The translations under genes were made by a program, and so were the position numbers. Under the pieces are notes generated by a model. The model ran no database searches. It saw nothing but the letters and a program-made list of their open reading frames with translations, and was not told the origin of the DNA. 64,000 nt of DNA, taken from contig CAWIIP010000002.1 in assembly GCA_963836235.1 (NCBI GenBank), forward strand, positions 992,001 to 1,056,000, written 5' to 3'. The DNA comes from an uncultured Pseudomonadota bacterium. Its GTDB lineage: Bacteria; Oederibacteriota; Muellerivitia; Muellerivitales; Muellerivitaceae. The number at the start of each line of letters is the position of its first letter. Position 1 is the stretch's first letter. Below, one piece after another: positions 5,897-20,906 of this stretch.

Positions 5897-5921
5897 GCCA
5901 TTAACTTAAGTCTACCACGAA

Positions 5922-6827
5922 TCAATAAAACTCTACCTGATCTATCCAAAGGTCAAGGGTACAGGTTCCCGGAGAATTATTGCGCCCTTCTTCCCATTGA
6001 AGCCAAAGTACCTGTTGAAGATTTACTCCGCTCAAAGTGGGTGGATTGGGTATAGCGCCCGCCACCAATTGGTGAAGGTCGCTGAATAGGTAGTTAAACT
6101 GTTTCCACTCCCCCCCAGTACCAGCGCTGTAATCAGCCGCAAAATGGTCGTAGCAAAGCTTTGGTCCCGCTGTACAGCCGCCGCCGCCCGCCACGGCCTG
6201 GGTCTGATAGACCGGAATGGAAAAAGTCCGGTGCAACGCGGTATCCCCAGGGCCAACCTTCATCATAAACTTGACCCCCGTCCAAGCACTCGCGTCATAA
6301 AAATTTCCTCCCTCGAATTGGGCTTGAAGGTCGACGGAGGGATATTCAAAATCTCCCAGGTCAGTAACGGCCCCATTCTCATGAAAGGCGTACCCGTCCC
6401 CGTTTGCTCCGAGGAAATCCGCGTCACTGCCGATAGTGACAAACGCGGAAATCGAACTATTCCATAGTATCGCTTGAAGTCCTGGCCCCTGGACGTTGCC
6501 TGTAGTAACGGCTTTCGCTAAGGTTGGAAAATTATTTATCACCATAAAAGCTGCCTTATTTGTGGAAGTAACAAGGGGAGGTTCATCTTTTAAGGTATAA
6601 GTAGGTGGGTTATTCAACTCGAACAGATTGCTATTAATATATTGCCATTCGTTGGAATTAAACTGATCTATCCGGCTCTGGTTATTGACCGCAGCGGGCA
6701 TGTTATAAGCTCCTACCGGAGCGGCACTGCTGTTGCATCCCAGAATGAGTGTAATACTGGCGGACGCAAGAACCCCAGCCAAGGCGAGAACCCAGGTTTT
6801 CGACAATAAATTAAAATTGGATGGCAT
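5922..6827 (-). CDS. Lipoprotein with CBM11/CIA30-like domain (paralog 2)
   Basis: Lipobox LILGC; FYDASAWTGVKF, GGGC...CYDHF, DLWIDQVEFY; start overlaps the upstream OMP gene by 17 nt. Confidence 0.7.
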   Translation of the reverse strand: MPSNFNLLSKTWVLALAGVLASASITLILGCNSSAAPVGAYNMPAAVNNQSRIDQFNSNEWQYINSNLFELNNPPTYTLKDEPPLVTSTNKAAFMVINNFPTLAKAVTTGNVQGPGLQAILWNSSISAFVTIGSDADFLGANGDGYAFHENGAVTDLGDFEYPSVDLQAQFEGGNFYDASAWTGVKFMMKVGPGDTALHRTFSIPVYQTQAVAGGGGCTAGPKLCYDHFAADYSAGTGGEWKQFNYLFSDLHQLVAGAIPNPPTLSGVNLQQVLWLQWEEGRNNSPGTCTLDLWIDQVEFY

Positions 6828-9252
6828 AGGTCACCTCCATGAATTGGTTATATAAAGTCCCCGGCAGGGCCTGCCCCACGTAAGGGAGTGCGTTGCCCCA
6901 AGTTAACCCGTAGTCGAAATAAAGCGTGGAGTTCCGGTCCATTCGGAAATCTTCCGAAAGCTTCCAGCTTTGGCGGCTGCCGTTGATATTGAAAGCCGTA
7001 TAGCCCACGCTTAAATCCGTATTATCGAATTGATAAGCGTAACGGGCCAAAGTCGTCCCTCCATAACCAGCCTCGGTACCGTTGATCTGTTCGACTCCGA
7101 AGGAAGCCGCCGTTTCCCACCAGGAGAATATTTCCGCCTGAATCCCGCCCAAAATCCAGTCGCTGGTCAGGGACCCGATGGCGCTGCTGGTTTGTTCATA
7201 CCGCACGTTGAACCCGATTTCTAGGTCGCCCGGAAGCCCGGTTGAGGGCGCCAAGTTGAACGAAGGCCCAATATTTACGTATTTAAAAGTACGCATCGGG
7301 TTAGGCACTCCCGCCACCGCGTCCACCGACACATAGCCCGTAGCTGGCAGGTTCACTACAAGGTTATCATTGATTTCCTGGACAAAGTAGACCGAGCCTG
7401 GAATTTTCAAGGCGTCCTTGTCCGTGGCTTTCACGTCAAAATCAAACCCGATCCCCTCTCGGTTGGGAGTCGCCAACCCGTAAGGGAAGGTATTGTCCTG
7501 GGTCCGGTCGTAAAAACCGAAAATACCACCGGCCCGGGGAACGTTGGAAAGAAAGAACTGGCTGCGAAGAGGAACGGATAAAAGATCCGGCGTGGCGGCG
7601 CCGTTGTAGAGGGACGCCGATCCCGGTTGGATGTCATCCTGGCGGGTCTGGGCCAAAGGAGAAAAATAGTTGGGGCCAACGTTCAAGTAATTAAAGGTGA
7701 TTTTGGAATGCCCAAAACGGAAATAAGGGCCGGCGAGGATGGCGTAATCGCTGACATCAGTTGAAGGATTCATCTTGTCGTCTTTGTAAGTGGAGAAAGC
7801 CCCTTCCCAAGTACCGCCAAACCCAGCGTCACCTTGTAATCCCACATCGAACGAAGGTTTGAAGCTGGAAATGACATATTGGTGGGCCCAGGTGGTTGGA
7901 TTAAAAGGCGAGTAGGGCGATCCCGGCTGCTCGCTGTAAATCGGCTCATCCAGCATAATCCCGTAGGCGTCGAGGGCCAATTGGAGCGAGAACCCGCCCA
8001 GGTACCAGCGCTTCAATTTAACTTCAGTATTGGCGGCGAAGATCCAATCGGTAAAATCCCCCGGGCCAAAGTAACTGCCCCCGCTGGCGTTATCGTTGAA
8101 CCCGCTGCGGATCATATTAGCCATGCCACCGACCTTGAAACGGTCGATAAAGGAGGAATCGGGCCAAAGAATATCCGTGCCGATCCTGAGACCCCTAAAG
8201 GGCCAATTGGGCTCGTCGTTCAGGAAGCTTTCGTATTTCGTGAAGTCATCTTCCCTCGCGATCATTTCGGGTTTGTAGCGCAAGTCCAGGTTATCCCTGT
8301 TCCACATCGTGAGCGGGGTATAGGACTCGTTGAAGTCTCCGACCGTGGCCGAAAGCCAGGGTGGGTTGAACTCCATATTAATTCGCCGGGCGACAAGCGA
8401 ATCGATTCCGACATTTGCGTCGGACTCAAAGGCCGATTCATAACGGATGATGGCATCCCACCGGATCTGTTTATCCACGATACCCACCGGTTCAAAATCA
8501 AGAAAGCCGAGGGCTGAGCGGGAGGAAGGGGTTAGGAACGAAAGTGCCTGGCTGTCACCATAATATTGCTGGGAGATCCCATAGGCCCTTCCCAACCCGT
8601 GCCAGCTGATAGTGGGATATTCGGTGATACCCATAATCCGCTTCCAAAGGTCATATTGCTTATTTTCCAGGTCGGCCTGGCGGTCCTGAAGGGACTTCAT
8701 ATCGCCCTGCACTCTTTTTAATTCATATTGATAGGCCTCTTCCAAACTGGACAAAGTGGCTTCGGCCTTGATCAGATCGTCCTGGCTTTCACTTTTGATT
8801 GGAGAAACGTAGGAAGGTGTGGCTGTAGGAACGGCAACGGCCGGAACCTCGGTCGGGGAAGCCGCCACAACAGGCGCTGGAAGTGGAGCCGATGGAGGAA
8901 CTGCTACTTCAGGAACCGCGGGAGGCGCCGGAGCGGCCGCGGGGCTTGAGGCGGAGGGAGCCGAGTTATCCGATGCCGGAGGCGGGGGGATGTCATCCGC
9001 CTGTGCCAATACAATTTCCTTCAGGTTCTCCCGAGCTTGAAAAACCAATCCAGCTACCTCCATTCGGGTCAAGGGAGCGGGAGAATTTTCGGTGGGCAGC
9101 AGGCCCGCCTGTTCCAACTGTTCAAGCTGGGCATAAGTGGGATCCCCTGTCGGGACTACCGGTGACGATCCGACGCCGGGAACCGTGGACGCCAAGGCGC
9201 CGGTCCCGAGGGCCATCAGGAGGAAAAGGTAAAGTTTAGAAATGCGCTTCAT
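6811..9252 (-). CDS. Large outer-membrane protein, SLH-like + coiled coil + putative beta-barrel (OmpM/SlpA-like, paralog C)
   Basis: Signal peptide; DPTYAQLEQLEQAGLL...LTRMEVAGLV (SLH-like); Pro/Ala linker; heptad segment LSSLEEAYQYELKRV; ends EVTYAIQF (BAM-type terminal Phe). Confidence 0.7.
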   Translation of the reverse strand: MKRISKLYLFLLMALGTGALASTVPGVGSSPVVPTGDPTYAQLEQLEQAGLLPTENSPAPLTRMEVAGLVFQARENLKEIVLAQADDIPPPPASDNSAPSASSPAAAPAPPAVPEVAVPPSAPLPAPVVAASPTEVPAVAVPTATPSYVSPIKSESQDDLIKAEATLSSLEEAYQYELKRVQGDMKSLQDRQADLENKQYDLWKRIMGITEYPTISWHGLGRAYGISQQYYGDSQALSFLTPSSRSALGFLDFEPVGIVDKQIRWDAIIRYESAFESDANVGIDSLVARRINMEFNPPWLSATVGDFNESYTPLTMWNRDNLDLRYKPEMIAREDDFTKYESFLNDEPNWPFRGLRIGTDILWPDSSFIDRFKVGGMANMIRSGFNDNASGGSYFGPGDFTDWIFAANTEVKLKRWYLGGFSLQLALDAYGIMLDEPIYSEQPGSPYSPFNPTTWAHQYVISSFKPSFDVGLQGDAGFGGTWEGAFSTYKDDKMNPSTDVSDYAILAGPYFRFGHSKITFNYLNVGPNYFSPLAQTRQDDIQPGSASLYNGAATPDLLSVPLRSQFFLSNVPRAGGIFGFYDRTQDNTFPYGLATPNREGIGFDFDVKATDKDALKIPGSVYFVQEINDNLVVNLPATGYVSVDAVAGVPNPMRTFKYVNIGPSFNLAPSTGLPGDLEIGFNVRYEQTSSAIGSLTSDWILGGIQAEIFSWWETAASFGVEQINGTEAGYGGTTLARYAYQFDNTDLSVGYTAFNINGSRQSWKLSEDFRMDRNSTLYFDYGLTWGNALPYVGQALPGTLYNQFMEVTYAIQF

Positions 9253-11491
9253 AAGTGAATCTCCAGATATTATCGTATTGCTGATAGCTTGGGTTTTCGG
9301 GCCAGGCGTAGGTGGTAAAAAAGTAATCCCCCCGGAAATTAATGCTGTCGCTTAGTGGATATTTAAACCCAAAAGCCAGGGTGGTCCGGGTAATGTCAAG
9401 GGATTGGGGTAGGAGACTATAGTTAACATCAATGTTGTTGTAAGCAGCGTTATCCTCAAAAAACGGATACTCACCCAAAGAAGTGGGGTTTCCATATCCA
9501 GTTAATATGTACTCCGACCCAGCCGAGGTCGTCCGTTCTAAGGCCGCAGACCAAATCACTGGGGTGATGATCGGAATGGGAATGTTGAAATCGGTTGCGA
9601 GGATAAGGGTATTGACGGTGAGGGAATTAACCCCGTCGCCCAAATCGGTGGTCTGGTGCTTGTAATCGAATTGGAAGTCATAGGTCCTGGATTTCATGGA
9701 GAAGGCCTTATCCAAGGATACTGTCAGGGCCGCCTCATAACCACCAAAGGTTCGGATCGTCGGGTCACCAAGAGCCAACACACCTGTACCAAGCTGGTTG
9801 AGAATGTAATCCGGCTGTATTTCATGAAAACCGCTCAACACATAAGAAGCTTGGGGTTTCAACCAGCCATCCTGTCCGATATCGGCAGAGAATCCGAGGA
9901 CTGTTCCTTCCCGGTTGGGGGTGGCGTCCCCATAAGGAAGCCTGTTTTCCGACAAGACATCAAAAGGCGCGAAAGAGGGTCGGTTGACATCCTGAAAGAC
10001 GAAGTTATTGAGGTACCCCGGCAAGGCATCGTCGATACCGAACATATTCGTGCTCAGGTAGTTTTGGAAACCTGCCAGAGGAGTGAAGGCGTTGGTTTGG
10101 GCACCGGGCGAGTAAAAATAAGGACCGATGCTCAGGTATTTGGCCGTGAAATGTGCGCCCAGGATGTTCAAGGACCCTTCCGCCACCATACCCCAATCCT
10201 CGAAAACCCGATTGTTCGCCAGGGGATCATTGGTTGTGTCGTCATATTGGGTAAAGGCCTTCTCCACCGTACCTGTTAGGTTTACCTTGTCGGCAAAAGG
10301 CAAGGTGACCCGCGCGTCCAAGCTTCCGATCTGGTATTGCTTGGCAAAGGTCGATGGAAAATCGGGGAGATAAGGTACGTTGGCGCTACCAGGATCCTGC
10401 CAGAGGAGTAACCCAACCCCTTTTAATTCCACGTTATCGCCCAGGAAGCTCAGGGAGTCTTGGCTCCCCGCGTAATAACTGGCGAAAGTAGAAGTCGTGG
10501 CGTCCTGCAGAGTCCCCGCCATGGCCTGCAACCCGAAACCGCTGAGAACGTCTTTCGACCAATCCCTCCCAGAAGCAAGTTGGAAGCCTCGCATATGCCA
10601 ATCAGGAGCATGATCCATATAGACCAGTTCCTCCGTGTCGATGCGGTTTCGATAGAAGGAAGTGGGTTCAATGAGGGTGTAAACCGGAGAGCCAGAGTTC
10701 CAAAGGGTGAGCGGGGTGTAGCTCTTAAAAAAGTCGCCGGCGGTCAGGTTGACGACCTCGTTGGTGTTAGAAAGGGAAAGCCACCTCAACTGGTACTCGG
10801 GCTGGATGGGATCCTGGTAATACATACCGATGGACCGCCAAAACCTTAAACGGGCTTCGAACAAAACATCAGGGACCGGAACGCTCTTCAAATCCATTTC
10901 CATAAAGATATCAGCGTTGTAATCCATGGGCGGATAGGCTGCGTCAGCTCCGAAGCCTCTGTAATTGTACATGTAGCCCCTGGAAAAGCCGTTCACGTCC
11001 GTTCCGGTGCGTTTCAAATATTCTTTTTGTAGCGCCGCGAAAACCTCGTTCCGGGCCCTGTCATCTAAAAGCTTGTTTTCCAACTGATCGACCTCGATCC
11101 CGAGGGTTGTCAATTCGGTCCGAAATTCTTCCACCAGCTCTTCCAAACTTTTGGCCGCTTGATCGGCTCCGGCGGCGGGAAGGGGGGCCATGCCCGGCAA
11201 ATCCATGCCGCCCGGCAGAGCCGGAGGCGCCGTGTCCAGAGGAGGAAGCCCGTTGGCTTGGGCCATCATCTCGGAAGCTTGGGCCGTCAAACCTACCACT
11301 TGGAAATTGGTCAGTTGGTCAACGGACTTTCCCGGATCTGAAACCAGCCCCGCGGCTACGAGGTCGGAAAGGCTCGTGTTGATCCAAGGATCCCGTTGCG
11401 TGGAGGACAAGGGACCGTGGGCTGCAAAAGCCGGGCAAGTGGCTACCGTTAAAAACACGGTCATTAAATTTTTTAATAGTCTTCGGTTCAT
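9236..11491 (-). CDS. Large outer-membrane protein, SLH-like + coiled coil + putative beta-barrel (paralog B)
   Basis: Signal peptide (AFA); LSDLVAAGLV; LEELVEEFRTELTTLGIEVDQLENK resembles the OmpM/SlpA stalk; SYTPLTLWN and PYGDATPNREG shared with paralog C; ends RFTYEAHF. Confidence 0.72.
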   Translation of the reverse strand: MNRRLLKNLMTVFLTVATCPAFAAHGPLSSTQRDPWINTSLSDLVAAGLVSDPGKSVDQLTNFQVVGLTAQASEMMAQANGLPPLDTAPPALPGGMDLPGMAPLPAAGADQAAKSLEELVEEFRTELTTLGIEVDQLENKLLDDRARNEVFAALQKEYLKRTGTDVNGFSRGYMYNYRGFGADAAYPPMDYNADIFMEMDLKSVPVPDVLFEARLRFWRSIGMYYQDPIQPEYQLRWLSLSNTNEVVNLTAGDFFKSYTPLTLWNSGSPVYTLIEPTSFYRNRIDTEELVYMDHAPDWHMRGFQLASGRDWSKDVLSGFGLQAMAGTLQDATTSTFASYYAGSQDSLSFLGDNVELKGVGLLLWQDPGSANVPYLPDFPSTFAKQYQIGSLDARVTLPFADKVNLTGTVEKAFTQYDDTTNDPLANNRVFEDWGMVAEGSLNILGAHFTAKYLSIGPYFYSPGAQTNAFTPLAGFQNYLSTNMFGIDDALPGYLNNFVFQDVNRPSFAPFDVLSENRLPYGDATPNREGTVLGFSADIGQDGWLKPQASYVLSGFHEIQPDYILNQLGTGVLALGDPTIRTFGGYEAALTVSLDKAFSMKSRTYDFQFDYKHQTTDLGDGVNSLTVNTLILATDFNIPIPIITPVIWSAALERTTSAGSEYILTGYGNPTSLGEYPFFEDNAAYNNIDVNYSLLPQSLDITRTTLAFGFKYPLSDSINFRGDYFFTTYAWPENPSYQQYDNIWRFTYEAHF

Positions 11492-11555
11492 CCCGATCCC
11501 AATGATTCTTTTTTATTACAACTCTCTACTAACCGTGAACAACGGCTAACCACCC

Positions 11556-14225
11556 TTAAAACAGGAACTTAAGCCTACTGAAATATTGGTCTCCTTGATA
11601 ATTATTGGCCGAAACGTAATTGTCCTGAAAATCGATGTGCTTGTAACGGAATTCGAATTTTCCGCTGCACCAGGGGATGTCATAAGCAAAACCCAAACCG
11701 AAGGCATGGGTGAGGTAATCCACTTGTGGATAGGTGTAAGCGGACTTCCAGGTTTCCACTCCCAGGTCCGCCATCAGGTCGATGTCGTGCAATACATTGA
11801 TCATCACGTCTGCGTCCCAAACCTTTTGATCGAACAAGTTAGGAATATTGGCGGAAAGGGCGGAGGGGTTAACGGAAGTCGAATAACTGCCGGTCAGGTT
11901 GGTGACCGCGTTCGAAGCGGCCCCAGAAACCTGGTTGTCGGTCATATAAAAAGTGCCATCAATGGGGGACTGGATTCCCATCCACTTGTTCAATTGAATC
12001 TTGGTTGTAAAAGTAAAATAGTTATACGTTTTGAGGTCTGTAATATTGGCATATTGGTTGACGGTGAGTTTGGAACCGCTTGCTTGCGTTATCGTCGTGG
12101 TGGCAATGGCCTGTCCGGCGGTTTGGGGAGTCAGGCTCAGGGTTCCACCGTTGTTGTAGATAGGAAGAATCAGCGGCAGGCGCTCCGAACTGAGGCGGAA
12201 CTGGTAGCGCACGTCGTCGTTGGAAATGTCATTGTCATTACGAAGGGTCTCGATATTATTGATATAGTCCTGCCGGAGCGGGTTCACGTTGGGCGCATAG
12301 TTCCCCCACAAGTCCAAGCCCCAAAGCCCTTCGTCGTCGGGGTAATAAAACCTCAACATAGTGAAAGGCTCAATCACGTTGTAACCCAGGGGATCGAGTT
12401 CGGCCACGCTTTCCTTCTTTTGGGTGAGGTCAAGGTTGACGACGATGGCGTCCAGGAAACTCGGCCAGTCCTTCATCCAAGTCTGCTTTCGGCCATTCCA
12501 CCCAAAATTAAACCGCCATCCGTAGCGGTCGCTTTGGAGGGTATCCGCCTCGGCTACGGCGCCATAAACGTCGTTGAAATCGCTGGGATTCCAGGCCATT
12601 CCATAATGAAAAAAGTTAATGCCGCTCATCATGACCCGGCTTTGGAAGTCCGCGTAATTCGCCCCCATGGAGAAGGCATAAAGGGTAAATGGATAAAAAA
12701 GCAGGGAGGCTTGGCCAGCCCCGTCTTCGATATATTGATGGCTTGCTTTGAAGGCATAGGAAGTTCCGTCCAACGCGTTTGTCGAGCTTGAATAGGCCGG
12801 CCCCACATAGACGCCTCCGTCGGAGAAATCGGATAATCCACCGTTGAGTTCAAGAAAGAAGGGGTCCAAGTTCACCTTCACGTCGGCGGCATAGTCCCTC
12901 AAATCCAACTGGGGCGATTGGTTGACGCCGAAATTATCGTTGATCCATTCGGTGGAAACCGATGTGCGGACAAGGTTGTTGGACCAAGGCTCGTCGATCT
13001 TGACAGCCTCTTCCCACCTCTGGGTCTGGGTAGGGCTGGTTCCCATGCGCCCTGCCAAGACGGTCATGCGGGCGTCCTGGCCCAACCAGGGAACTTGCTG
13101 GCCCACGGCATAAACGCCGTCGAACACCCGGTCCGTAGCGGACTGGACATTTCCGGCGCTAGGGGAATAGGCGGGGATATAGCTGACAGCTGTCATGTAA
13201 TCATCCCAATTCTTGGCGTTCTTGTCGTCATTGAAGTTTTTGATGTCGAAGGGGTCCTCGAAGCGTTTGATGGCATAGGTGGCAAAGCCCCGGCTGAAAT
13301 TATCCAGGGTGGTGCTGGGGTTGTAGGTCTCCACTGCGAAGGTGGTGTCCCACTTGCCCAAATCCCCATAAAGGAAGAAGGTGGTGCTGGGATTGGCGAT
13401 ATAGATGGATGCGGGCGCCGTCCCCACCCCGGTAGCGACGACCCCGGAGGCGTTCGAATATGGCACAATGGCTCCGAAACCGGTGGAAAGAGTCCCCTTT
13501 CCTCCCAGATCGGAGTACATCCCCATATCGATTTGCTGAACCTCCCGCATGGCGTTGTTCAAGGCGGGCGCTCCGTTGCTCAAGGGTCCGGTGACATTGA
13601 TATTTTCGAACCGCATACTTGTGTTCTCGTAAAAATGAGGCATCCCCACCGATTTATTGGCCTTCTTCCAGACGGCGTCCACCTCATCCTGCGCGGCTTT
13701 CAACTTATCCAGCTCGTCCTCCTGCTGTTGAACGCGGGTATCGTTCAAAGCCATTTGGGTACGGAGATAGGCCGCGGAGTCGCGAAGCTGTTTCAAGAGA
13801 TCATCGATTTCTTTTTTAAGCGTGTCGGAAATAACAGGTGTTGGCAGGGCGGGAACAACGGGAGGGTTTGAAGGAAGAAGAGTCGGGACCGTCATCGCCG
13901 GAGTGGCGAAAACGGGCAAGGGGGCCGGAGCTGAAACCTGGGGTGTAGGTGTCGGCAATGTGAATTCAGGGGCGGATATGCGGGCTTTGGCTTTCTCCGT
14001 ATAAAAAGCCAGTTCGAGCCTCGTGACATACTTGCCTTGATCCAACACTTCCTTATCTTGTGCGTCCAGCAGGCCATAATCCCCTAGTTTTTTCACCCGC
14101 TGATAAAGGGTTTGATCCGGTCCCAGTTCCTCCCAAGGATTGGCCCAGGCATAAGGAGTGTTTAGGGCCATTGTGAACGCAAAAAAGGAAAGGGCGGCCC
14201 ATAAAATTTTGACCTTTAATTTCAA
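11556..14225 (-). CDS. Large outer-membrane protein, SLH-like + coiled coil + putative beta-barrel (paralog A)
   Basis: Signal peptide (AWA); NPWEELGPDQTLYQRVKKLGDYGLL...VTRLELA (SLH TRAE-like); Pro-rich linker; coiled coil; ends SRLKFLF. Confidence 0.7.
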   Translation of the reverse strand: MKLKVKILWAALSFFAFTMALNTPYAWANPWEELGPDQTLYQRVKKLGDYGLLDAQDKEVLDQGKYVTRLELAFYTEKAKARISAPEFTLPTPTPQVSAPAPLPVFATPAMTVPTLLPSNPPVVPALPTPVISDTLKKEIDDLLKQLRDSAAYLRTQMALNDTRVQQQEDELDKLKAAQDEVDAVWKKANKSVGMPHFYENTSMRFENINVTGPLSNGAPALNNAMREVQQIDMGMYSDLGGKGTLSTGFGAIVPYSNASGVVATGVGTAPASIYIANPSTTFFLYGDLGKWDTTFAVETYNPSTTLDNFSRGFATYAIKRFEDPFDIKNFNDDKNAKNWDDYMTAVSYIPAYSPSAGNVQSATDRVFDGVYAVGQQVPWLGQDARMTVLAGRMGTSPTQTQRWEEAVKIDEPWSNNLVRTSVSTEWINDNFGVNQSPQLDLRDYAADVKVNLDPFFLELNGGLSDFSDGGVYVGPAYSSSTNALDGTSYAFKASHQYIEDGAGQASLLFYPFTLYAFSMGANYADFQSRVMMSGINFFHYGMAWNPSDFNDVYGAVAEADTLQSDRYGWRFNFGWNGRKQTWMKDWPSFLDAIVVNLDLTQKKESVAELDPLGYNVIEPFTMLRFYYPDDEGLWGLDLWGNYAPNVNPLRQDYINNIETLRNDNDISNDDVRYQFRLSSERLPLILPIYNNGGTLSLTPQTAGQAIATTTITQASGSKLTVNQYANITDLKTYNYFTFTTKIQLNKWMGIQSPIDGTFYMTDNQVSGAASNAVTNLTGSYSTSVNPSALSANIPNLFDQKVWDADVMINVLHDIDLMADLGVETWKSAYTYPQVDYLTHAFGLGFAYDIPWCSGKFEFRYKHIDFQDNYVSANNYQGDQYFSRLKFLF

Positions 14226-14274
14226 AAAAACCCCTGTTATTGGTTATCCATCAAAAACCCTCTGCAATATTTCG

Positions 14275-15051
14275 TCAAAAGAATTCGATTTCATCAACCC
14301 AATAATCAATTTTATAAGTTCCGGCGTGGTTATCGCCGCTATGATCCCACTTAATATAGATGAACTCTTTCAAATGATCGGTCAAATCCGGGGGAGTCAC
14401 AGGTGATCCCCAGCCCGATTCTCTTTTCAAATCGGAGAAGACGTAACTTTTAGAGATCCAATCATTGGAAGGATCCATCATGGCCCCAAAGTGGTTATAG
14501 CAATCGCTTTGGCAGGTTCCCCCGTCGGAACCCGGAAGGGTCGCGGCGGTTCCGATTCCAAAACGCCGTTTCATCGATTGGTCGTCCGCTGGGCATTTAT
14601 AATAAAATTTTATTCCGGTAAAGGCGCTGGCGTCGTAATAACCGCTGTCCTTAAACTTACCTTGGAGGGTGAAAGCTGGATAAACCGCGTTCCCCTGGTC
14701 CACCAAGCTTCCAAAAACATGGGCCGCCATCTTGGTTCCGTTGGCCCCACCCGCGACTATGAAATCGCTATTGATGGTGTTACCGCCGAAAGTAATCGTG
14801 GTCCAAGCGCCCGAGGCACCCCCATAAAGTTTAGAATTGATATTTTTGGAACCATCATCAAAGTTGGAGATAAGGCAGGCTTCCGAGGGAATATTCACTT
14901 TAGGTTTGTTGGCATCGGCGTTCTGCAAGCCCTGACCTAGGGAAGCGTATTTAGAACCCTCATTTACAAACACCGCTCCACAACCCGCAACGAGAGAAAT
15001 GATGGTGAAGCCGATTAACACGGAAGAAAAGCGGCCCGAACCCATATTCAC
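14275..15051 (-). CDS. Lipoprotein with CBM11/CIA30-like domain (paralog 1)
   Basis: Lipobox LVAGC; LISNFDDG, YYDASAFTGIKF, GGTCQSDCYNHF, DYWVDEIEFF. Confidence 0.72.
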   Translation of the reverse strand: MNMGSGRFSSVLIGFTIISLVAGCGAVFVNEGSKYASLGQGLQNADANKPKVNIPSEACLISNFDDGSKNINSKLYGGASGAWTTITFGGNTINSDFIVAGGANGTKMAAHVFGSLVDQGNAVYPAFTLQGKFKDSGYYDASAFTGIKFYYKCPADDQSMKRRFGIGTAATLPGSDGGTCQSDCYNHFGAMMDPSNDWISKSYVFSDLKRESGWGSPVTPPDLTDHLKEFIYIKWDHSGDNHAGTYKIDYWVDEIEFF

Positions 15052-15376: not shown

Positions 15377-18300
15377 TCAATGATGATCATCGTCAAGAAT
15401 TCCCTTGGACTCGGCGGTTCCATCATCTTCGTTGGATAGTTTCCTGTCCGTTGGTTTCACGCTTGAAGAGGATGAAATTTTTTTCATATAAGAAAAATCG
15501 AAAACCCTCAAAGATTGACCAGGTTTTTCCACCATAACGGCCGCCATATAGCGGTTGTCCCTGTCCGGCTGATCCTCCTTGGGTATATTCACAAACAAGC
15601 TTTTCACGAGCACCCTATTGCCCGAAGGAACATCAAAAGGACCAACCGTAGCCAAATCGACGTAATAATTTTTCAAGGTGTCGATTTGGTGTAACACCAA
15701 TCCCTTCAGGTTTTCGGGAGAGTTATTGCGAATTTCCACGCTAATGGGTACCGGAACACCCGCTGGAATTCTTTTGGGAGCGGTCAAAGATACTTCGATA
15801 GGCGAAAGTCCCTCGACTTGTTGCAAGGTCGAAAAAGCTTTTCCACCTGATATGGCCCATTCCATGGAACTATAAGGCCCCCGGACGCCATAAATAATCC
15901 GGTAAAGGTCGTGCCAAAACATTCCCAATCCTGAGTTTACCCCAAACCAATTGTGGAAGGTGTCAACTTCCCGGTCGTAAAGTTCTTCCGGTCCCGGTGG
16001 ATCGATGGATTTTTGAACCCAGTTAAAATCTACCATTTCCCCCATGGCGTACATTCCGTTCGATCGGGAGAGGTAACCCGGCCACTGTTTCTTCATGGAA
16101 GCCATGGTGCCACGGTCACCCTCGTAAAGCATAATGTGGTTATAATTGACCCCAGCATCAATGAACATGGCAGGATCCTGCCCATGTTGGTGTCCCATTT
16201 GCCATCCCAAAGTAAAGGTAAAAACCGGCTTGGACATCTTGGCCTCATCGAGAATGCTTTTTAAAGTCATGGCCACTTTATGGGCCCGCCACCATTGAAA
16301 GAGTTCCACTACTTGAGGATCTTCTTTTTGTTCAACTGTTTTAGCCAACCAGTGGATGCGCTCCTGTTTAGAAAGGGATAAGAAATTATCGGGTTCCGGC
16401 ACATTCAAATCTTTCACGAATTCATCCACCATTTCATACCCTGCCGTACCCGTGCGTACATAGTCCATGCCCACCATATCGATGTCGGGGTCCTTATCCA
16501 ACTCTTTGAGGAAATTGACAATGTCTTGGTGGCGCTTGGAATCCTCCAGAGAAATAAAACGGTTTTGTACGACAGAATCGGTATCCGGATCATAACCCAA
16601 CGAGAATTCGTAAGGCGCTTGGTTCCAAGCGTCCCCGACGACCTTAAATGTTGTCATATAACCCCCGAATTTAAGTCCCGCGACATGGGCGGCTTTGGCA
16701 TATTTGCGCCCCACTTCCATATCGCCGCGGCTAAAGGGAAAATCCTTGGCATTCAAGTGATCCCAAATGGAGGTTTGCCCCATGAGGTAACAATAAGCGT
16801 TCGCGCCCATGAATTGGGCCCACTCAATCGCATTGGAAGCCGTAAGGGAATCACTCCCATCCAACGCTGGAACCGCTCCTCTGATTAACTGCTTACCTCC
16901 TTCCATCGTCAAAGCCGCGTATCCCGGGTAAAGGCCGTTGGGTTTCAATGGAGATAAGGTAAAAGCGGACTCAAAAACCTTTGGTGATCCCCATCGGGGG
17001 GATGTTACCGTGACCTCGGCAATATAAGTTCCTGGAACCGGGTTATAGGGGATGGGCCAATTGCCCGCGAACTTTTTCGAATCCATGTCTCTTTTTAAAT
17101 TTAATTTAGACTGCCCATCCACCATGTTCACCGGTATACCGTTGTGGAAAACCTCGACCACCGCTTGCATTTCAGGAAAAGATGAAATTTCATCCTGGTT
17201 TAATCGTACCTCGAAAGGAACCATCTCAAATCTTAAGTAATTCCTTGTCGGCATAACCGCAATGACGTCGGGGATCATTTGTGAAACCATGGGAACCAAA
17301 AGGCCCATTCTTTTGGACTGGGGAAGAAGGGTTGCCTTGGCCCAAAAAAGCCCACCTCCAATAAATAAAGCTGCGGTTAAGGCCCACCGAAACGAATTCC
17401 GGCCTCGAAACCAACGCGGAATCTCAGCTATAGGAATCTGGGGCGCCGGAAATCTCCATTCCGACTGAGGTTGGGAGTTTGGAACTTCAACAAAAGGCAT
17501 GGGTGAGGTCGACGTTAGGGGCGTCGATTCGGTGAAAGTGGGCTTCAAAAAGGATTGAATTAATTCCCCTTCAGAAAGGGGCGCTGAAGGCGAAACGGCA
17601 TCTTCAACAACCCCACTTAGTTCTTGGACGCTGGTAACTTCTTCTCCACGTTCCACAACAGTTGTTTCTATCCTGGCAATGAAGGTTTCGGCGGGAATGG
17701 ATCTGTTCTGGACCGGAGGCGGATTGGGGGATTTACGTTGAAAAGCAGAACGAATTTTCATGGTGAAAATTTTGAACTTTTCATGAACAAAAAGAAAAGT
17801 TCTATCTCCTATAGAAGTTCTCTTTTGAGTAAATGGCCCCGGACCTTTGGACGTTTTTTGAGTCGATCCGGTTATCTTTTCGACGGCTTCCGCAGAAACC
17901 TTACCCCCGGACCGAAAAACAGAACCCGTTCCCCTTCCTAAAATCCGGACTCCGACGAACAAAACCGCCAGGATGGAAAGGATAAGTCCGAATGCCGCTC
18001 CAAGCTGCTGGCCGACAGCGTGAAAAAGATTGGAAGTCTTTTCCTTGAATGCGTTGAAGTTAGCGGAAATATTCAAGGAAACTGGTTCAACGGGTTTCGA
18101 TAAGCGGAATGGTTCTAACTCGGGTTGGTTGACCGGCGCCGCGACTTCCTGCGGCAATGGGTTTTCGCGAGTGAGACGGACAACCGCCTCCACATGATAG
18201 GTTTGGGGAAACATATCCAAAGGTTGGGCCCAATCCACAACGTAACCATGCTTTACCAACAACGCGAGATCCCGCGCCAAAGTGGAGGGATCACAAGAAA

Positions 18301-19600
18301 CATAAACCAGGCGCTCGGGATGGAACGCCGTCACTCTGGCCAGCACTTCCGGCAAGACTCCCTTTCGGGGGGGGTCCAAGATGGCTGCGTCAATCTGCGT
18401 CAGCCCTTTTTCTTTCAATCCCAGCAGGATGGGAGCCACGTCCCCTTCCAGAAAATCAATGTTGGACCGGTGGTTGAGTTCCGCGTTGATCTTAGCGTCT
18501 TCTACTGCCGGTCCGATTTCCTCCACCCCCACCACATAGTCGGATTTTTCCGAAACCGCCATGGCCAAGGTGCCGATGCCACTATAGAGATCCAGAATCG
18601 TTCCCCATTTTTTCTTGTGGATCGGGTCACCGAGAGCTTCCCTGACAATTGTATGAAGCATATCGGCTTGAAGCGTATTGACTTGAAGGAAGGACTTCAG
18701 CGAAACCTTTAGTTTTAGGTCATCAATGATTTCAAAATAATGATCGCGCCCCGCCAGGGTTCGGGTAGCCTGCCCAAAAACAATATTCGTTCTGGAGGCA
18801 TTGATATTTTGCAAAACTCCCACCAAGCCGGGCGTTTCTTCCACCAACTCTCGAGCGATTCGGGGAAGGATCCCCTCCAGTTCCTCGGGCATCAACGAGG
18901 CCTTTTGAACCCTTTCCTCTGGGACTTCAGTCCGGGTGACAAAAGCCAAAAGAAGTTCCCCGGTTTTGACCCCCTGCCGAACAGCCAAATGTCGAAGAAA
19001 TCCTGCGTGTTTTTTTTCTTGGTAGGGTGTCAGCCCCGATCGGTCGATCTTTTTGAGGACTTTTTGGATGAAGTCATTGATGGCGTCCCCCTGGATGGGA
19101 CATGTGTGGTAGGGGACCAAATGATGGGAACGGGGTTCGTAAATCCCAGAAACAAAATGCCCCTCCCGCATGGAAAGAACCGGCATGGCCTTGTTGCGAT
19201 AGGCAAAAGGCGAAGGTGAGGGCAGGCAAGGCTGGACGGTAACATTCTCAAGGCGGCCGATGCGCTTGAGAGCGTCCACAACGAATTGCCGCTTGGTTTG
19301 AAGTTGTCGGGGATAATTAAAATGTTGCCACTGGCACCCGCCGCATTCCTCAAAAATATCGCAGGGCGGTTCCACCCGGTCCGGCGAACGCCTTAACACG
19401 GAAAGAATTTCCGCCGTGGCGTAATGGTCCTTGACTTGCGTAATACGGGCCTTCACCCTCTCGCCCGGTAAACCACCTGGAACAAAAATAGCGAAATCCT
19501 GATAACGCCCAACTGAATCGCCCCCAAAAGCAAGGGAGGAAATTTCAATCTCAATTTGATCCCCGTGCCGAACGGGTTTAACGACACCGGTATTGTTCAT
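15377..19600 (-). CDS. rlmD: 23S rRNA m5U1939 methyltransferase RlmD fused to membrane segments and a putative glycoside-hydrolase-like domain
   Basis: First ~480 aa: TRAM domain, PPCDIFEECGGCQWQH, SFLQVN, LDLYSGIGT, DPPRKG, YVSCDPSTLARD, DMFPQTYHVE. The ~925-aa extension has two hydrophobic stretches and a DMVGMDYVRTG motif. Confidence 0.85.
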   Translation of the reverse strand: MNNTGVVKPVRHGDQIEIEISSLAFGGDSVGRYQDFAIFVPGGLPGERVKARITQVKDHYATAEILSVLRRSPDRVEPPCDIFEECGGCQWQHFNYPRQLQTKRQFVVDALKRIGRLENVTVQPCLPSPSPFAYRNKAMPVLSMREGHFVSGIYEPRSHHLVPYHTCPIQGDAINDFIQKVLKKIDRSGLTPYQEKKHAGFLRHLAVRQGVKTGELLLAFVTRTEVPEERVQKASLMPEELEGILPRIARELVEETPGLVGVLQNINASRTNIVFGQATRTLAGRDHYFEIIDDLKLKVSLKSFLQVNTLQADMLHTIVREALGDPIHKKKWGTILDLYSGIGTLAMAVSEKSDYVVGVEEIGPAVEDAKINAELNHRSNIDFLEGDVAPILLGLKEKGLTQIDAAILDPPRKGVLPEVLARVTAFHPERLVYVSCDPSTLARDLALLVKHGYVVDWAQPLDMFPQTYHVEAVVRLTRENPLPQEVAAPVNQPELEPFRLSKPVEPVSLNISANFNAFKEKTSNLFHAVGQQLGAAFGLILSILAVLFVGVRILGRGTGSVFRSGGKVSAEAVEKITGSTQKTSKGPGPFTQKRTSIGDRTFLFVHEKFKIFTMKIRSAFQRKSPNPPPVQNRSIPAETFIARIETTVVERGEEVTSVQELSGVVEDAVSPSAPLSEGELIQSFLKPTFTESTPLTSTSPMPFVEVPNSQPQSEWRFPAPQIPIAEIPRWFRGRNSFRWALTAALFIGGGLFWAKATLLPQSKRMGLLVPMVSQMIPDVIAVMPTRNYLRFEMVPFEVRLNQDEISSFPEMQAVVEVFHNGIPVNMVDGQSKLNLKRDMDSKKFAGNWPIPYNPVPGTYIAEVTVTSPRWGSPKVFESAFTLSPLKPNGLYPGYAALTMEGGKQLIRGAVPALDGSDSLTASNAIEWAQFMGANAYCYLMGQTSIWDHLNAKDFPFSRGDMEVGRKYAKAAHVAGLKFGGYMTTFKVVGDAWNQAPYEFSLGYDPDTDSVVQNRFISLEDSKRHQDIVNFLKELDKDPDIDMVGMDYVRTGTAGYEMVDEFVKDLNVPEPDNFLSLSKQERIHWLAKTVEQKEDPQVVELFQWWRAHKVAMTLKSILDEAKMSKPVFTFTLGWQMGHQHGQDPAMFIDAGVNYNHIMLYEGDRGTMASMKKQWPGYLSRSNGMYAMGEMVDFNWVQKSIDPPGPEELYDREVDTFHNWFGVNSGLGMFWHDLYRIIYGVRGPYSSMEWAISGGKAFSTLQQVEGLSPIEVSLTAPKRIPAGVPVPISVEIRNNSPENLKGLVLHQIDTLKNYYVDLATVGPFDVPSGNRVLVKSLFVNIPKEDQPDRDNRYMAAVMVEKPGQSLRVFDFSYMKKISSSSSVKPTDRKLSNEDDGTAESKGILDDDHH

Positions 19601-20213: not shown

Positions 20214-20906
20214 TTACTTTTTTGGCGTCGGCGTCGGATTGGGCTTAGGTAAAGAGGAATCTCCTTCCAACCGAATATAATCCAGATACACAACCACAGG
20301 TTGGGTGAATCCATGGGTGTCTACCCAAAAACGCAAGGACCGTATGTTCGTCAAGTCGAGCCTTGCCTGAATCAAGTTATCTAAAGAGATCGAAATAGGA
20401 CTCGCTTTTTTAGACAACAAAAGTCCCGATGTTTCATAGAGGTTGGCGTGTGAATCGGCAACTTGAATGTGGTAGGTCACCGGTTGATCCTGCGCGTCAA
20501 AGGCATCCATCTTTAAATCCGTGTATTCCTGCCATTCATAGACTTTTAACTGGGTAACTGAGGTGGTATCCAAAGCGATTTCAGGCTGCCAAGTAGCCGT
20601 CGGAGTTGGAGCTTGCGCAGGAGAAATCGGGGTTGGAATGGGGAAAAATTGATTTTCGAGGAGAAAAGTAAGTTTGGCGCTGTACTTCCCGTGGGTTTTG
20701 TTTTCGGTGGATGTCTCCATATTAACGTAACCGCCCGTGGTCCATTGAAGATCGTCATCGGGGTATTCAAAATCGGTGATGACTTGGGTTTTAACAGTAT
20801 TTTTGTGTTGCTTAAAACTACGGGTCAAACCGAAGCCCATGGCCAAAACATATAACAAAACGGCGGCCAACAAAACAAAGCCAAGGATGGTCATGGTTCG
20901 ACGCAT
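20214..20906 (-). CDS. Membrane-anchored galactose-binding-fold/CBM-like protein
   Basis: N-terminal TM; VITDFEY...THGKYSAKLTF...WQEYTDLKMD...LDLTNIRSLRFW...VYLDYIRLEG pattern; directly downstream of the LacI gene. Confidence 0.6.
   Translation of the reverse strand: MRRTMTILGFVLLAAVLLYVLAMGFGLTRSFKQHKNTVKTQVITDFEYPDDDLQWTTGGYVNMETSTENKTHGKYSAKLTFLLENQFFPIPTPISPAQAPTPTATWQPEIALDTTSVTQLKVYEWQEYTDLKMDAFDAQDQPVTYHIQVADSHANLYETSGLLLSKKASPISISLDNLIQARLDLTNIRSLRFWVDTHGFTQPVVVYLDYIRLEGDSSLPKPNPTPTPKK

What the first reader, a model, noticed from the sequence alone, without database searches (positions are those of the whole stretch)
15377..19600. RlmD rRNA methyltransferase fused in-frame to membrane segments and a glycoside-hydrolase-like domain
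Seen: an intact RlmD (about 19600-18160) continues without a stop through a hydrophobic stretch (~17940-18005), a low-complexity linker and a second hydrophobic stretch (~17340-17390) into ~650 aa with an Ig-like segment, a DMVGMDYVRTG motif and an Ig-like tail. Known: RlmD is normally a soluble protein of about 450 aa; D-Y-(I/V)-R motifs occur in GHL10/DUF187 and DUF4015 TIM-barrel putative hydrolases. Inference: either a membrane-tethered rRNA modification enzyme linked to a glycan-binding or glycan-cleaving domain (it sits between the LacI gene and the OMP operon), or a recent fusion of two neighbouring genes.
Basis: partly seen in the sequence, partly recalled or inferred. Interest (0 to 1): 0.7.

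Follow-up and report, generated by a model that had tools for sequence, protein, structure and literature searches.

The report
Membrane-anchored RlmD fused to exported glycosidase-like enzyme
In an uncultured soil and peat bacterium, the only gene for the ribosomal-RNA methyltransferase RlmD is permanently joined, through a floppy tether and an internal export signal, to an uncharacterised sugar-cleaving-type enzyme that works outside the cytoplasm; the join is old and conserved, but its purpose is unknown.

Summary
Window 15377-19600 (-) is one 1407-aa ORF.

**RlmD half.** Residues 1-480 are an intact RlmD (TIGR00479, 396 bits against a cut-off of 184; all Fe-S, SAM and catalytic motifs present). 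It is the only RlmD in this genome.

**C-terminal half.** Residues 770-1407 fold confidently (pLDDT 92.8) as β-sandwich, TIM barrel, β-sandwich. The best structural match is the GHL10 enzyme Cwp19 (Z 21.3). A profile-profile comparison with real GHL10 proteins gives 96.5% probability, although Pfam's GHL10 model does not detect it.

**Junction.**
- A partly conserved, fast-evolving linker.
- A signal-peptide-like segment (residues 729-756: basic n-region, short hydrophobic core, A-x-A).
- Standalone relatives carry an N-terminal signal-peptide-like segment (seen in four of seven) or membrane anchor, so the glycosidase-like half is most likely exported.

**Age and spread.** The fusion is neither recent nor an artefact.
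- It is one open frame in all 25 distinct complete relatives examined.
- It is the sole RlmD in 26 of 31 genomes of the family.
- Both halves are under strong purifying selection.
- A distant lineage keeps a catalytically dead RlmD-like module in the same position.

**Context and open question.** The gene sits in a conserved LacI-linked cluster of envelope proteins. Why the two halves are joined is unknown. Nothing was found in print with the searches made.

The parts
15377..19600 (-). Whole fused ORF, 1407 aa plus stop
18161..19600 (-). RlmD module (residues 1-480): TRAM, Fe-S central domain and SAM methyltransferase domain
   Evidence: TIGR00479 at 396.2 bits against cut-off 183.55. Pfam TRAM and PF05958.
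19403..19573 (-). TRAM domain (residues 10-66)
   Evidence: PF01938, E 3.7e-12. Coordinates checked.
19334..19363 (-). Three of the four Fe-S cluster cysteines, CDIFEECGGC (C80, C86, C89). The fourth, C167, is at 19100-19102.
   Evidence: Invariant in 26 of 26 aligned fused proteins. Coordinates checked. The assignment of these cysteines to the cluster rests on recalled RumA knowledge.
18188..18595 (-). Catalytic part of the methyltransferase: SAM loop LDLYSGIGTL (18566-18595), DPPRKG (18359-18376), nucleophile Cys436 in VSCDP (18293-18295), Glu471 in HVE (18188-18190)
   Evidence: Present in 24 of 24 intact-type fused proteins and absent in 2 of 2 f9 proteins. Coordinates checked. The roles of the motifs are recalled from RumA literature.
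18032..18118 (-). Conserved linker motif LEPFRLSKPVEPVSLNISANFNAFKEKTS (residues 495-523)
   Evidence: Alignment: FRL and flanking residues recur in most family members.
17936..18004 (-). First hydrophobic segment (residues 533-555), strongly hydrophobic here but not universal
   Evidence: Kyte-Doolittle 2.61. A segment at KD>=1.3 in this position occurs in 14 of 24 intact-type proteins.
17417..17935 (-). Variable S/P/T/E-rich linker (residues 556-728)
   Evidence: Composition. 31-54% identity and dN/dS 0.14-0.44 between close relatives. Total spacer length 142-425 aa.
17333..17416 (-). Internal signal-peptide-like segment RWFRGRNSFRWALTAALFIGGGLFWAKA (residues 729-756): basic n-region, ~15-residue hydrophobic core, A-K-A
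   Evidence: A hydrophobic segment sits before the C-domain in 26 of 26 proteins. A-x-A occurs in 23 of 24 intact-type proteins and V-x-A in 1. Cleavage is inferred, not shown.
16955..17266 (-). N-terminal β-sandwich of the exported part (residues 779-882)
   Evidence: AlphaFold2 model, strands at model residues 10-113, pLDDT mostly above 90.
15809..16936 (-). (β/α)8 barrel, distant GHL10-like glycoside-hydrolase fold (residues 889-1264), with GMDYVR at 16454-16471
   Evidence: model. Cwp19 5oq2 at Z 21.3. Foldseek hits to GH66, GH5 and GH2. hhalign to GHL10 at 96.5%.
15476..15799 (-). C-terminal β-sandwich (residues 1268-1375)
   Evidence: Profile match to the C-terminal β-domain of a GH20 enzyme, E 0.0016. 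Weak Transglut_C and CARDB hits in relatives.
15380..15475 (-). Low-complexity acidic tail (residues 1376-1407)
   Evidence: pLDDT below 50. Sequence.

Best explanation
This is a real, old, in-frame gene fusion that encodes one membrane protein working in two compartments.

**Shown**
- The N-terminal 480 residues are a complete RlmD, the 23S rRNA m5U1939 methyltransferase. It is the only RlmD in the genome.
- The C-terminal 640 residues are a β-sandwich, TIM barrel, β-sandwich module. It is distantly related to GHL10 glycoside hydrolases such as Cwp19.
- The two are linked by a 250-residue spacer and a signal-peptide-like hydrophobic segment.
- The arrangement is conserved, and both halves are under purifying selection across a family of the FCPU426 lineage.

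**Inferred**
- RlmD stays in the cytoplasm.
- The segment at residues 729-756 was the signal peptide of a once-separate secreted enzyme. It now inserts N-in/C-out and exports the glycosidase-like half to the periplasm, where it acts on an envelope or imported glycan together with the neighbouring LacI-linked cluster.
- The long flexible linker lets the tethered RlmD reach pre-50S rRNA.
- The conserved A-x-A may still be cut by signal peptidase I, which would separate the two halves after export (about even odds).
- The join most likely arose once by loss of the rlmD stop codon. It persists because the exported half now depends on rlmD's start. A real functional coupling is possible but not shown.
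For: **RlmD identity**
- TIGR00479 at 396 bits against a cut-off of 184.
- All motifs intact in 24 of 24 intact-type proteins.
- Sole RlmD over the cut-off in G000.
- The RlmD match lies in a 1278-1542-aa frame in 26 of 31 family genomes. Second RlmD-like hits occur only in G007 and G011.

**C-domain**
- AlphaFold2 pLDDT 92.8, pTM 0.91.
- Foldseek glycoside-hydrolase hits at E 1e-14.
- Cwp19 at Z 21.3 with 301 residues aligned.
- hhalign to 8 real GHL10 proteins: 96.5%, E 8.7e-10.

**Export**
- Four of seven standalone relatives inspected in the phylum start with a signal-peptide-like segment: L013, L014 and L015 and L081.
- Other family members start with an N-terminal anchor.
- A hydrophobic segment with a K/R-rich N-flank precedes the domain in 26 of 26 proteins.
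- A-x-A in 23 of 24.

**Real and old**
- One frame in 25 of 25 distinct complete relatives from independent assemblies.
- dN/dS: RlmD 0.04-0.13, C-domain 0.04-0.16, linker 0.14-0.44.
- The frame stays open through linkers of 142-425 aa with many indels.
- Fused forms are one clade on the ML tree, SH-aLRT 89.

**Dead module**
- L019 and L020 lack the SAM loop, DPPRKG, the catalytic Cys and the Glu, but keep TRAM and four Cys.
- pN 0.21 against pS 0.75.
- The fold matches RlmCD and RumA.

**Context**
- LacI, u1, fused gene, d1, d2. The downstream pair d1-d2 follows the fused gene in 21 of 24 loci.
Against: - No experiment and no RNA or protein data exist. Public DNA contigs cover the gene only in patches and not 17799-18092.
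- In this window's protein a second, strongly hydrophobic segment (533-555) lies upstream. If both segments span the membrane, the C-domain would be cytoplasmic.
- No dedicated topology or signal-peptide predictor was available. The calls rest on Kyte-Doolittle windows, flank charges and the -3/-1 rule.
- The signal-peptide-like segment is internal, 728 residues from the N-terminus, so cleavage is unproven.
- The test for internal starts has low power, because Shine-Dalgarno use is weak even at the true start.
- One database protein (P0206, 721 aa, on an 82-kb contig) starts inside the linker and could be a split form. Its DNA could not be examined.
- The single-origin clade has only moderate support, and both fused groups sit on long branches.
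- Pfam's GHL10 model does not detect the domain.
Confidence: 0.78

Rival explanations
1. One ORF, two independently translated proteins. RlmD with a tail is made from the first start, and the exported enzyme is made from an internal start just before the signal-peptide-like segment. The full-length fusion would be a by-product.
For: In the f9 forms the hydrophobic segment is preceded by Met-Met-Lys-Arg, exactly like a signal-peptide N-terminus. P0206 was called from a Met inside the linker.
Against: - An in-frame start with a 5-nt or longer Shine-Dalgarno within 60 codons upstream of the segment occurs in 1 of 26 proteins, no more than the ORF-wide background.
- There is no SD before MMKR in L019 or L020.
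- Intact-type proteins have no conserved Met there.
- Without selection for read-through, stops and frameshifts should have accumulated in 142-425-aa, poorly conserved linkers. None is seen in 25 of 25 distinct relatives.
Confidence: 0.07
2. Two-pass topology in this organism. Both hydrophobic segments span the membrane, the 190-residue loop is periplasmic, and the glycosidase-like domain is cytoplasmic next to RlmD.
For: Segment 533-555 is strongly hydrophobic (KD 2.61), more so than segment 741-759 (KD 1.52).
Against: - Orthologous domains in relatives that lack the first segment (10 of 24 intact-type proteins) have a single segment.
- Four of seven standalone forms inspected in the phylum carry signal-peptide-like N-termini and seven wider family members carry an N-terminal anchor.
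- The loop next to the first segment and the N-flank of the second are K/R-rich, which favours a cytoplasmic loop.
- The first segment ranges from absent to strong among close relatives, which is unlike an obligatory membrane span.
Confidence: 0.1
3. Assembly or sequencing artefact, or a very recent accidental fusion private to this genome.
For: The genome is a metagenome-type assembly. One 96%-identical relative shows a frameshift, but inside the C-domain (P0152 plus P0208).
Against: - The same single frame occurs in 25 of 25 distinct complete relatives from many independent assemblies and studies.
- About 54 database clusters of 1000-1500 aa come from several sources.
- Public contigs are identical where they cover the gene, with no indels.
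- Synonymous sites between genera are saturated.
Confidence: 0.01
4. Functional coupling. The RlmD module, active or dead, is a cytoplasmic RNA- or ribosome-binding head that controls, localises or times the exported glycosidase. One polypeptide would link ribosome biogenesis to envelope glycan remodelling.
For: - A catalytically dead RlmD-like module is kept under purifying selection in front of the same exported domain (pN 0.21 against pS 0.75; 68% identity between genera).
- That module keeps TRAM and the four cysteines.
- No active RlmD was found elsewhere in those two genomes, which are 83% and 89% complete.
- A conserved motif follows RlmD in the linker.
Against: - No mechanism is known for signalling through a single span and a disordered linker.
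- Constraint on the dead module could simply reflect the need to stay folded and soluble in front of an essential export signal.
- Most families of the phylum manage with separate genes.
Confidence: 0.12

Closest known systems
RlmD/RumA of E. coli (PDB 1UWV, 2BH2) and RlmCD of S. pneumoniae (PDB 5XJ1, 5ZQ0)
   Same: The N-terminal 480 residues match the RlmD equivalog model end to end. They carry TRAM, four Fe-S cysteines, the SAM loop, DPPRKG, the nucleophile Cys and the Glu. The degenerate f9 module still matches these structures best.
   Different: Known RlmD proteins are soluble and about 430-460 aa (recalled). This one continues for 930 more residues through hydrophobic segments into an exported domain. 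Among proteins of 841-2400 aa, 54 of 56 RlmD hits belong to this lineage.
Cwp19 of Clostridioides difficile, the solved GHL10 (PF02638) domain (PDB 5OQ2)
   Same: - Best structural match to the barrel: Z 21.3, rmsd 4.0, 301 residues.
- Profile-profile homology to GHL10 at 96.5%, with the D-Y-I-R strand aligned.
- Near-invariant D1046-Y, Y at β6 and G at β7 parallel the Asp196-Tyr197, Tyr297 and Gly328 that the Cwp19 paper highlights (PMC5765458, passages read).
   Different: - About 13% identity.
- Pfam's GHL10 model gives no hit for the window's protein and 17-bit sub-threshold hits in only 3 of 60 relatives.
- This family has β-sandwich domains on both sides instead of CWB2 repeats.
- The substrate is unknown. 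Cwp19 is reported as a peptidoglycan lytic transglycosylase (PMC6016235, title and abstract start seen in the listing).
Standalone members of the same C-domain family (about 600-750 aa, all 'hypothetical protein')
   Same: Same three-domain exported module at 30-38% identity. There are 197 representative clusters. They are present in 77 of 99 genomes of the phylum.
   Different: They start with an ordinary signal-peptide-like segment or an N-terminal anchor and have no methyltransferase. Genomes G037, G031 and G036 carry separate rlmD genes elsewhere.
PgaB C-terminal domain (GH153, PDB 6AU1, 4F9D) and other clan-like TIM-barrel glycosidases (GH5, GH42, GH66)
   Same: Similar barrel, Z 17-19.5. 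Foldseek E 1e-12 to 1e-14.
   Different: No sequence-level relation was detected. The usual β7 glutamate position appears to be glycine, as in GHL10. This rests on the hhalign register and is not structurally verified.

Membership tests
RlmD (TIGR00479, 23S rRNA m5U1939 methyltransferase) | Full-length match above the curated equivalog cut-off | tested here: met
   396.2 bits against cut-off 183.55, profile positions 3-432 of 432.
RlmD (TIGR00479, 23S rRNA m5U1939 methyltransferase) | N-terminal TRAM domain | tested here: met
   PF01938, 46.3 bits, residues 10-66.
RlmD (TIGR00479, 23S rRNA m5U1939 methyltransferase) | Four cysteines of the 4Fe-4S cluster | tested here: met
   C80, C86, C89 and C167 are invariant in the alignment. 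Their role is recalled from the RumA structure.
RlmD (TIGR00479, 23S rRNA m5U1939 methyltransferase) | SAM-binding loop, DPPR(K)G, nucleophile Cys and general-base Glu | tested here: met
   LDLYSGIGTL, DPPRKG, VSC436DP and HVE471 are present. The roles of the motifs are recalled.
RlmD (TIGR00479, 23S rRNA m5U1939 methyltransferase) | Methylates U1939 of 23S rRNA | not testable with these tools
   Needs an enzyme assay or complementation of an rlmD mutant.
GHL10 (Pfam PF02638) | Match to the Pfam model above its gathering score (27.9 bits) | tested here: not met
   No hit at E<=10 for residues 770-1407. The PF02638 search of G000 found nothing. 3 of 60 relatives reach only 17 bits.
GHL10 (Pfam PF02638) | Detectable homology to bona fide members | tested here: met
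   hhalign of A1 (94 sequences) against 8 PF02638-positive proteins: probability 96.5%, E 8.7e-10, 306 columns.
GHL10 (Pfam PF02638) | (β/α)8 barrel closest to the solved GHL10 structure | tested here: met
   5oq2_A ranks first of 48,161 chains, Z 21.3. The next rows (Z 19.5-18) are other glycoside-hydrolase barrels.
GHL10 (Pfam PF02638) | Active-site hallmarks named for Cwp19: Asp-Tyr after β4, Tyr after β6, Gly in place of the β7 Glu | tested here: inconclusive
   Near-invariant D277-Y, Y390 and G418 (domain numbering) fall on the aligned GHL10 positions. This rests on a 14%-identity alignment, with no superposition of side chains.
GHL10 (Pfam PF02638) | Glycoside-cleaving activity | not testable with these tools
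   Needs a purified domain and substrates.
Sec-type cleavable signal peptide | Basic n-region, 7-15-residue hydrophobic core, small residues at -3 and -1 | tested here: met
   RWFRGRNSFRW / ALTAALFIGGGLFW / AKA. A-x-A in 23 of 24, V-x-A in 1. The rule itself is recalled, and no SignalP-type predictor was run.
Sec-type cleavable signal peptide | Located at the N-terminus of the precursor | tested here: not met
   It starts at residue 729. Cleavage of such an internal segment is therefore only a hypothesis.

The most novel reading that the evidence does not exclude
The RlmD head is more than a passenger. Active or catalytically dead, it is a cytoplasmic RNA/ribosome-binding module that governs an exported GHL10-type glycosidase, so one polypeptide ties ribosome biogenesis or translation state to remodelling of the cell envelope. 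The selectively maintained pseudo-RlmD of the f9 lineage would be the purely regulatory form.
Probability: 0.12. Interest if true: 0.85.

Novelty: new variant of a known kind. Interest (0 to 1): 0.6.

Why it matters
1. **Location of ribosome maturation.** A housekeeping rRNA-modification enzyme that exists only as the cytoplasmic head of a membrane protein is unusual. It raises a testable question about where late 50S maturation happens in these cells.
2. **Hidden enzyme family.** More than 50 public entries of 1,000-1,500 aa are named simply 'RlmD'. That name hides an exported enzyme family with no Pfam model and no solved structure: 197 clusters, all 'hypothetical'.
3. **Pseudoenzyme retention.** The pair of an intact fusion and a dead-RlmD fusion is a natural experiment on how a fused enzyme decays into a retained pseudoenzyme.
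4. **Polyprotein-like strategy.** If the A-x-A is cut, this is a bacterial way of making a cytoplasmic and a periplasmic protein from one ORF.
5. **Envelope biology.** The conserved LacI-linked cluster of Pfam-less envelope proteins around the gene is a lead into the envelope biology of an uncultured soil and peat lineage.

Tried and rejected
- **RNA evidence.** No RNA holder is listed for this stretch. The three DNA runs, all from one study, give only short contigs and leave 17799-18092 uncovered. Read support at the first hydrophobic segment was therefore not obtained.
- **Profile of the C-domain against PDB sequences.** No barrel hit. Only the C-terminal β-sandwich matched, against a GH20 tail at E 0.0016 and arrestin-like folds at E about 0.1.
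- **Pfam on the linker and C-domain.** Nothing at E<=10.
- **P0014 (1102 aa).** Its C-domain groups with the dead-RlmD forms. Its N-terminal 480 residues could not be shown to be RlmD-like (hhalign probability 9%), so I do not count it as a third dead-RlmD case.
- **G095.** Its '1245-aa frame' turned out to be an ordinary 644-aa standalone gene.
- **G001 (same genus, 80% complete).** Neither half was found. This is uninformative.
- **Promoter and terminator scan.** Only one minus-strand promoter-like site, upstream at 19818-19791, and none inside the linker. Counts were at or below shuffled expectation, so the scan carries no weight.
- **First IQ-TREE run.** The run on 139 rows did not finish. 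It was replaced by FastTree and by a 37-row ML tree.

Full report
**Observation.** Window 15377-19600 on the minus strand is a single ATG-started ORF of 1407 codons.
- an RlmD-type N-terminus;
- a hydrophobic stretch at residues 533-555 (nt 17936-18004);
- a second hydrophobic stretch at residues 741-759 (inside nt 17333-17416);
- the motif GMDYVR (nt 16454-16471);
- all-β segments on both sides of an α/β core.

**N-terminal module.**
- Residues 25-471 match the NCBIfam equivalog model for RlmD at 396.2 bits, against a cut-off of 183.55.
- Pfam finds TRAM at residues 10-66 and the U5-methyltransferase domain at residues 302-478.
- Four cysteines (C80, C86, C89, C167), the SAM loop LDLYSGIGTL, DPPRKG, Cys436 in VSCDP and Glu471 in HVE are all present. 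Their roles are recalled from the RumA literature.
- In the window's own genome this is the only match above the model's cut-off. The other two matches score 38 and 23 bits.

**C-terminal module.**
- Residues 770-1407 and the 289-residue stretch before them match no Pfam family, even at E 10.
- An exhaustive search of 1.84 billion representatives finds only 197 clusters at E<=0.001, most of them 600-750 aa. Public sources call these 'hypothetical protein'.
- AlphaFold2 on a 94-sequence alignment gives pLDDT 92.8 and pTM 0.91. The model has a β-sandwich (model residues 10-113), an eight-stranded α/β barrel (about 120-495) and a second β-sandwich (499-606).
- Foldseek places it among multi-domain glycoside hydrolases: GH66 dextranase at E 1.7e-14, then GH5, GH2, GH13 and GH14. 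Global TM-scores are low.
- The Foldseek-independent aligner ranks Cwp19 of C. difficile first (5oq2_A: Z 21.3, rmsd 4.0, 301 residues). GH5, GH42, GH29, GH156 and PgaB follow at Z 18-19.5.
- The Cwp19 paper (PMC5765458, passages read) identifies that domain as GHL10. It highlights Asp196-Tyr197, Tyr297 at β6, and Gly328 replacing the usual β7 Glu.
- Three of 60 family members give sub-threshold GHL10 hits of 17 bits.
- I collected 8 proteins that pass PF02638 from genomes of the same phylum and compared profiles. hhalign gives 96.5% probability, E 8.7e-10 and 306 columns, and this family's GLDYIR falls on GHL10's HLDYIR.
- The barrel is therefore a distant relative of GHL10 that Pfam's model misses. 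It has no sequence-detectable solved structure.

**The junction.**
- After RlmD comes a motif conserved in most relatives, LEPFRLSKPVEPVSLNISANFNAFKEKTS (residues 495-523).
- The first hydrophobic segment follows.
- Next is an S/P/T/E-rich stretch that evolves fast: 31-54% identity in close pairs, dN/dS 0.14-0.44.
- Then comes RWFRGRNSFRW-ALTAALFIGGGLFW-AKA (residues 729-756).
- All 26 aligned fused proteins have a hydrophobic segment at this last position, with 1-5 K/R in the 15 residues before it.
- In the 24 proteins with intact RlmD, the segment ends in A-x-A in 23 cases and V-x-A in 1, followed by (T/D)-L.
- By the recalled n/h/c and -3/-1 rules this is a signal peptide in everything but position.
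- Four of the seven standalone relatives inspected in the phylum begin with signal-peptide-like segments (L013, L014 and L015; L081).
- Seven N-terminally extended members of the wider family begin with a membrane anchor plus a low-complexity spacer.
- I therefore infer that the C-terminal module is extracytoplasmic and that segment 729-756 is the former signal peptide of a once-separate gene.
- The first hydrophobic segment is not universal. At KD>=1.3 it is present in 14 of 24 intact-type proteins, with scores from 1.37 to 2.61, and it is absent in close relatives of some carriers.

**Distribution and age.**
- Among relatives, the C-domain was found in 33 of 41 genomes.
- Across the GTDB phylum it was found in 77 of 99 genomes.
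- Long frames occur only in family f1 (29 of 30 other genomes have the domain), in f2 (1 of 1) and in f9 (2 of 2). Sixteen other families carry 594-754-aa standalone genes. The apparent exception, G095, is a 644-aa gene.
- In f1, 30 of 31 genomes have an RlmD match. In 26 of them it lies in a frame of 1278-1542 aa. The 4 shorter frames are probably cut by contig ends, which I did not check. Only G007 and G011 show a second RlmD-like match.
- All 25 distinct complete relatives I extracted carry both halves in one frame.
- Spacers range from 142 to 425 aa, so many indels have kept the frame.
- dN/dS is 0.04-0.13 for RlmD and 0.04-0.16 for the C-domain.
- Among proteins of 841-2400 aa in a 5.8-billion-sequence collection, 54 of 56 RlmD hits belong to this lineage, and several are named simply 'RlmD'.
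- Record titles of relatives name 'candidate division FCPU426'.

**The degenerate form.**
- In f9 (L019, L020) the N-terminal module still matches TIGR00479 over positions 3-427, but at only 74-90 bits.
- It keeps TRAM and the four cysteines. It has lost the SAM loop (deleted), DPPRKG (HTKSEK), the catalytic Cys (VTESAA) and the Glu.
- The two genera differ at saturated synonymous sites (pS 0.75) but at pN 0.21. That gives 68% identity, against 73% for the C-domain.
- An AlphaFold2 model of moderate confidence (pLDDT 64.8) matches RlmCD (E 2e-26) and RumA (E 2e-19) over about 470 columns.
- There the spacer is only 62 residues including the hydrophobic segment.
- No other RlmD above cut-off was found in those genomes, which are 83% and 89% complete.
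- On a FastTree of 139 C-domains, the intact-fused and dead-fused groups are each well-supported clades within one 47-row clade.
- On an ML tree of a 37-row subset (10 of 25 intact-fused, 3 dead-type, 16 standalone, 8 outgroups), all fused forms are one clade with SH-aLRT 89.6.
- A single fusion followed by catalytic decay in one lineage is the best reading, but it is not proven.

**Artefact and alternative-start checks.**
- Public contigs agree with the window wherever they cover it, with no indels, but they are patchy.
- A start codon with a Shine-Dalgarno of 5 nt or more within 60 codons upstream of the signal-peptide-like segment occurs in 1 of 26 proteins. There is none before the MMKR of f9.
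- The power of this test is limited, because SD use is weak at the true start.
- One 96%-identical relative is split by a frameshift inside the C-domain, not at the junction (P0152 plus P0208 on one contig).
- P0206 may be a split form, but I could not check it.

**Context.**
- The order LacI, u1 (230 aa), fused gene, d1 (258 aa), d2 (889 aa), d3, d4 recurs. d1 and d2 follow the fused gene in 21 of 24 loci, and two of the misses are short contigs.
- None of u1 or d1-d6 has a Pfam match.
- Atlas leads, which are not proof, point to an SLH-domain outer-membrane β-barrel for d2 (score 0.97) and, weakly, to CBM30 or galactose-binding-like modules for d1 (score 0.91).
- The glycosidase-like half thus belongs with a sugar-regulated envelope cluster, and rlmD is the foreign element.
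- In genomes with standalone C-domain genes, rlmD lies tens to hundreds of kilobases away.

**How it most likely works.**
- Shown: the architecture, its conservation, the intact RlmD motifs and the GHL10-like fold.
- Inferred:
  - RlmD is cytoplasmic and tethered.
  - Segment 729-756 inserts N-in/C-out and exports the glycosidase-like module.
  - The long flexible linker gives the enzyme reach to its rRNA substrate. This is consistent with the linker collapsing where catalysis was lost.
  - Signal peptidase I may cut after A756 (roughly even odds).
- The fusion may be a frozen accident, kept because the exported half depends on rlmD's start. The selectively maintained dead module keeps open a real functional role for the head.

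**Unexplained.** Segment 533-555 is strongly hydrophobic in this protein. If it spans the membrane, the topology above fails. Its patchy distribution argues that it does not span, but this needs an experiment.

**Novelty.**
- Searches for 'RlmD + transmembrane + fusion' returned 4 unrelated papers. 'rRNA methyltransferase + membrane-anchored + glycoside hydrolase' returned 0.
- The 134 FCPU426 papers are ecology surveys, judging by the 15 listed (listing only).
- Three earlier notes of this scan on other genomes (e1-5111474, e1-760557, e1-1502165) reached the same core reading. I saw them after my analysis, and they are not independent evidence.
- One of them says that a 'whole phylum' carries the fusion. 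Under the GTDB phylum used here, the fusion is confined to 3 of 23 families.

Noticed in passing
window 5039-15051 (-): Six consecutive same-strand ORFs (285, 301, 813, 751, 889 and 258 aa) have no Pfam match. d1, d5 and d6 look like paralogs, and so do d3 and d4 (cross-hits). d2 resembles SLH-domain outer-membrane β-barrel proteins, and d1 weakly resembles CBM30 or galactose-binding-like modules (atlas leads). The cluster is syntenic across the family.
   Followed up: partly
window 20214-20906 (-): A 230-aa protein (u1) with an N-terminal hydrophobic segment and no Pfam match. It is conserved between the LacI gene and the fused gene in 20 of 24 loci.
   Followed up: partly
L034 1775-3247 (-): Relatives carry an extra, divergently oriented 490-aa gene between u1 and the fused gene. 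Its C-terminus looks like that of an outer-membrane protein. The window has only a 600-nt gap there.
   Followed up: no
P0152 + P0208 (one 497,966-nt public contig): In a relative whose RlmD half is 96% identical, the gene is called as 943-aa and 475-aa pieces. The break is a frameshift near residue 910, inside the C-domain. It could be real decay or a long-read indel.
   Followed up: partly
P0206 (721 aa, 82-kb public contig): A 71%-identical C-domain protein whose called start lies inside the linker. It is a possible natural split form or an upstream frameshift.
   Followed up: no
G007:C94:5576-6661: One family member has a second RlmD-like match (196 bits summed) in an 821-aa open frame, besides the fused gene.
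   Followed up: no
P0205 (1011 aa): The only long RlmD-like hit outside this lineage combines a pseudouridine-synthase domain (PF00849) with the U5-methyltransferase domain.
   Followed up: no
G042:C28:48166-50040: The C-domain match in this family member contains one in-frame TGA. It was not examined.
   Followed up: no
L013, L014, L015: In three distant genomes the standalone C-domain gene lies next to a GTPase whose N-terminus resembles LepA/EF4. The motif was recognised from memory and not tested.
   Followed up: no
L081 1190-3565 (-): Next to the standalone C-domain gene of G095 lies a 791-aa secreted protein that looks like a glycosidase with carbohydrate-binding modules. This was judged by eye only.
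   Followed up: no
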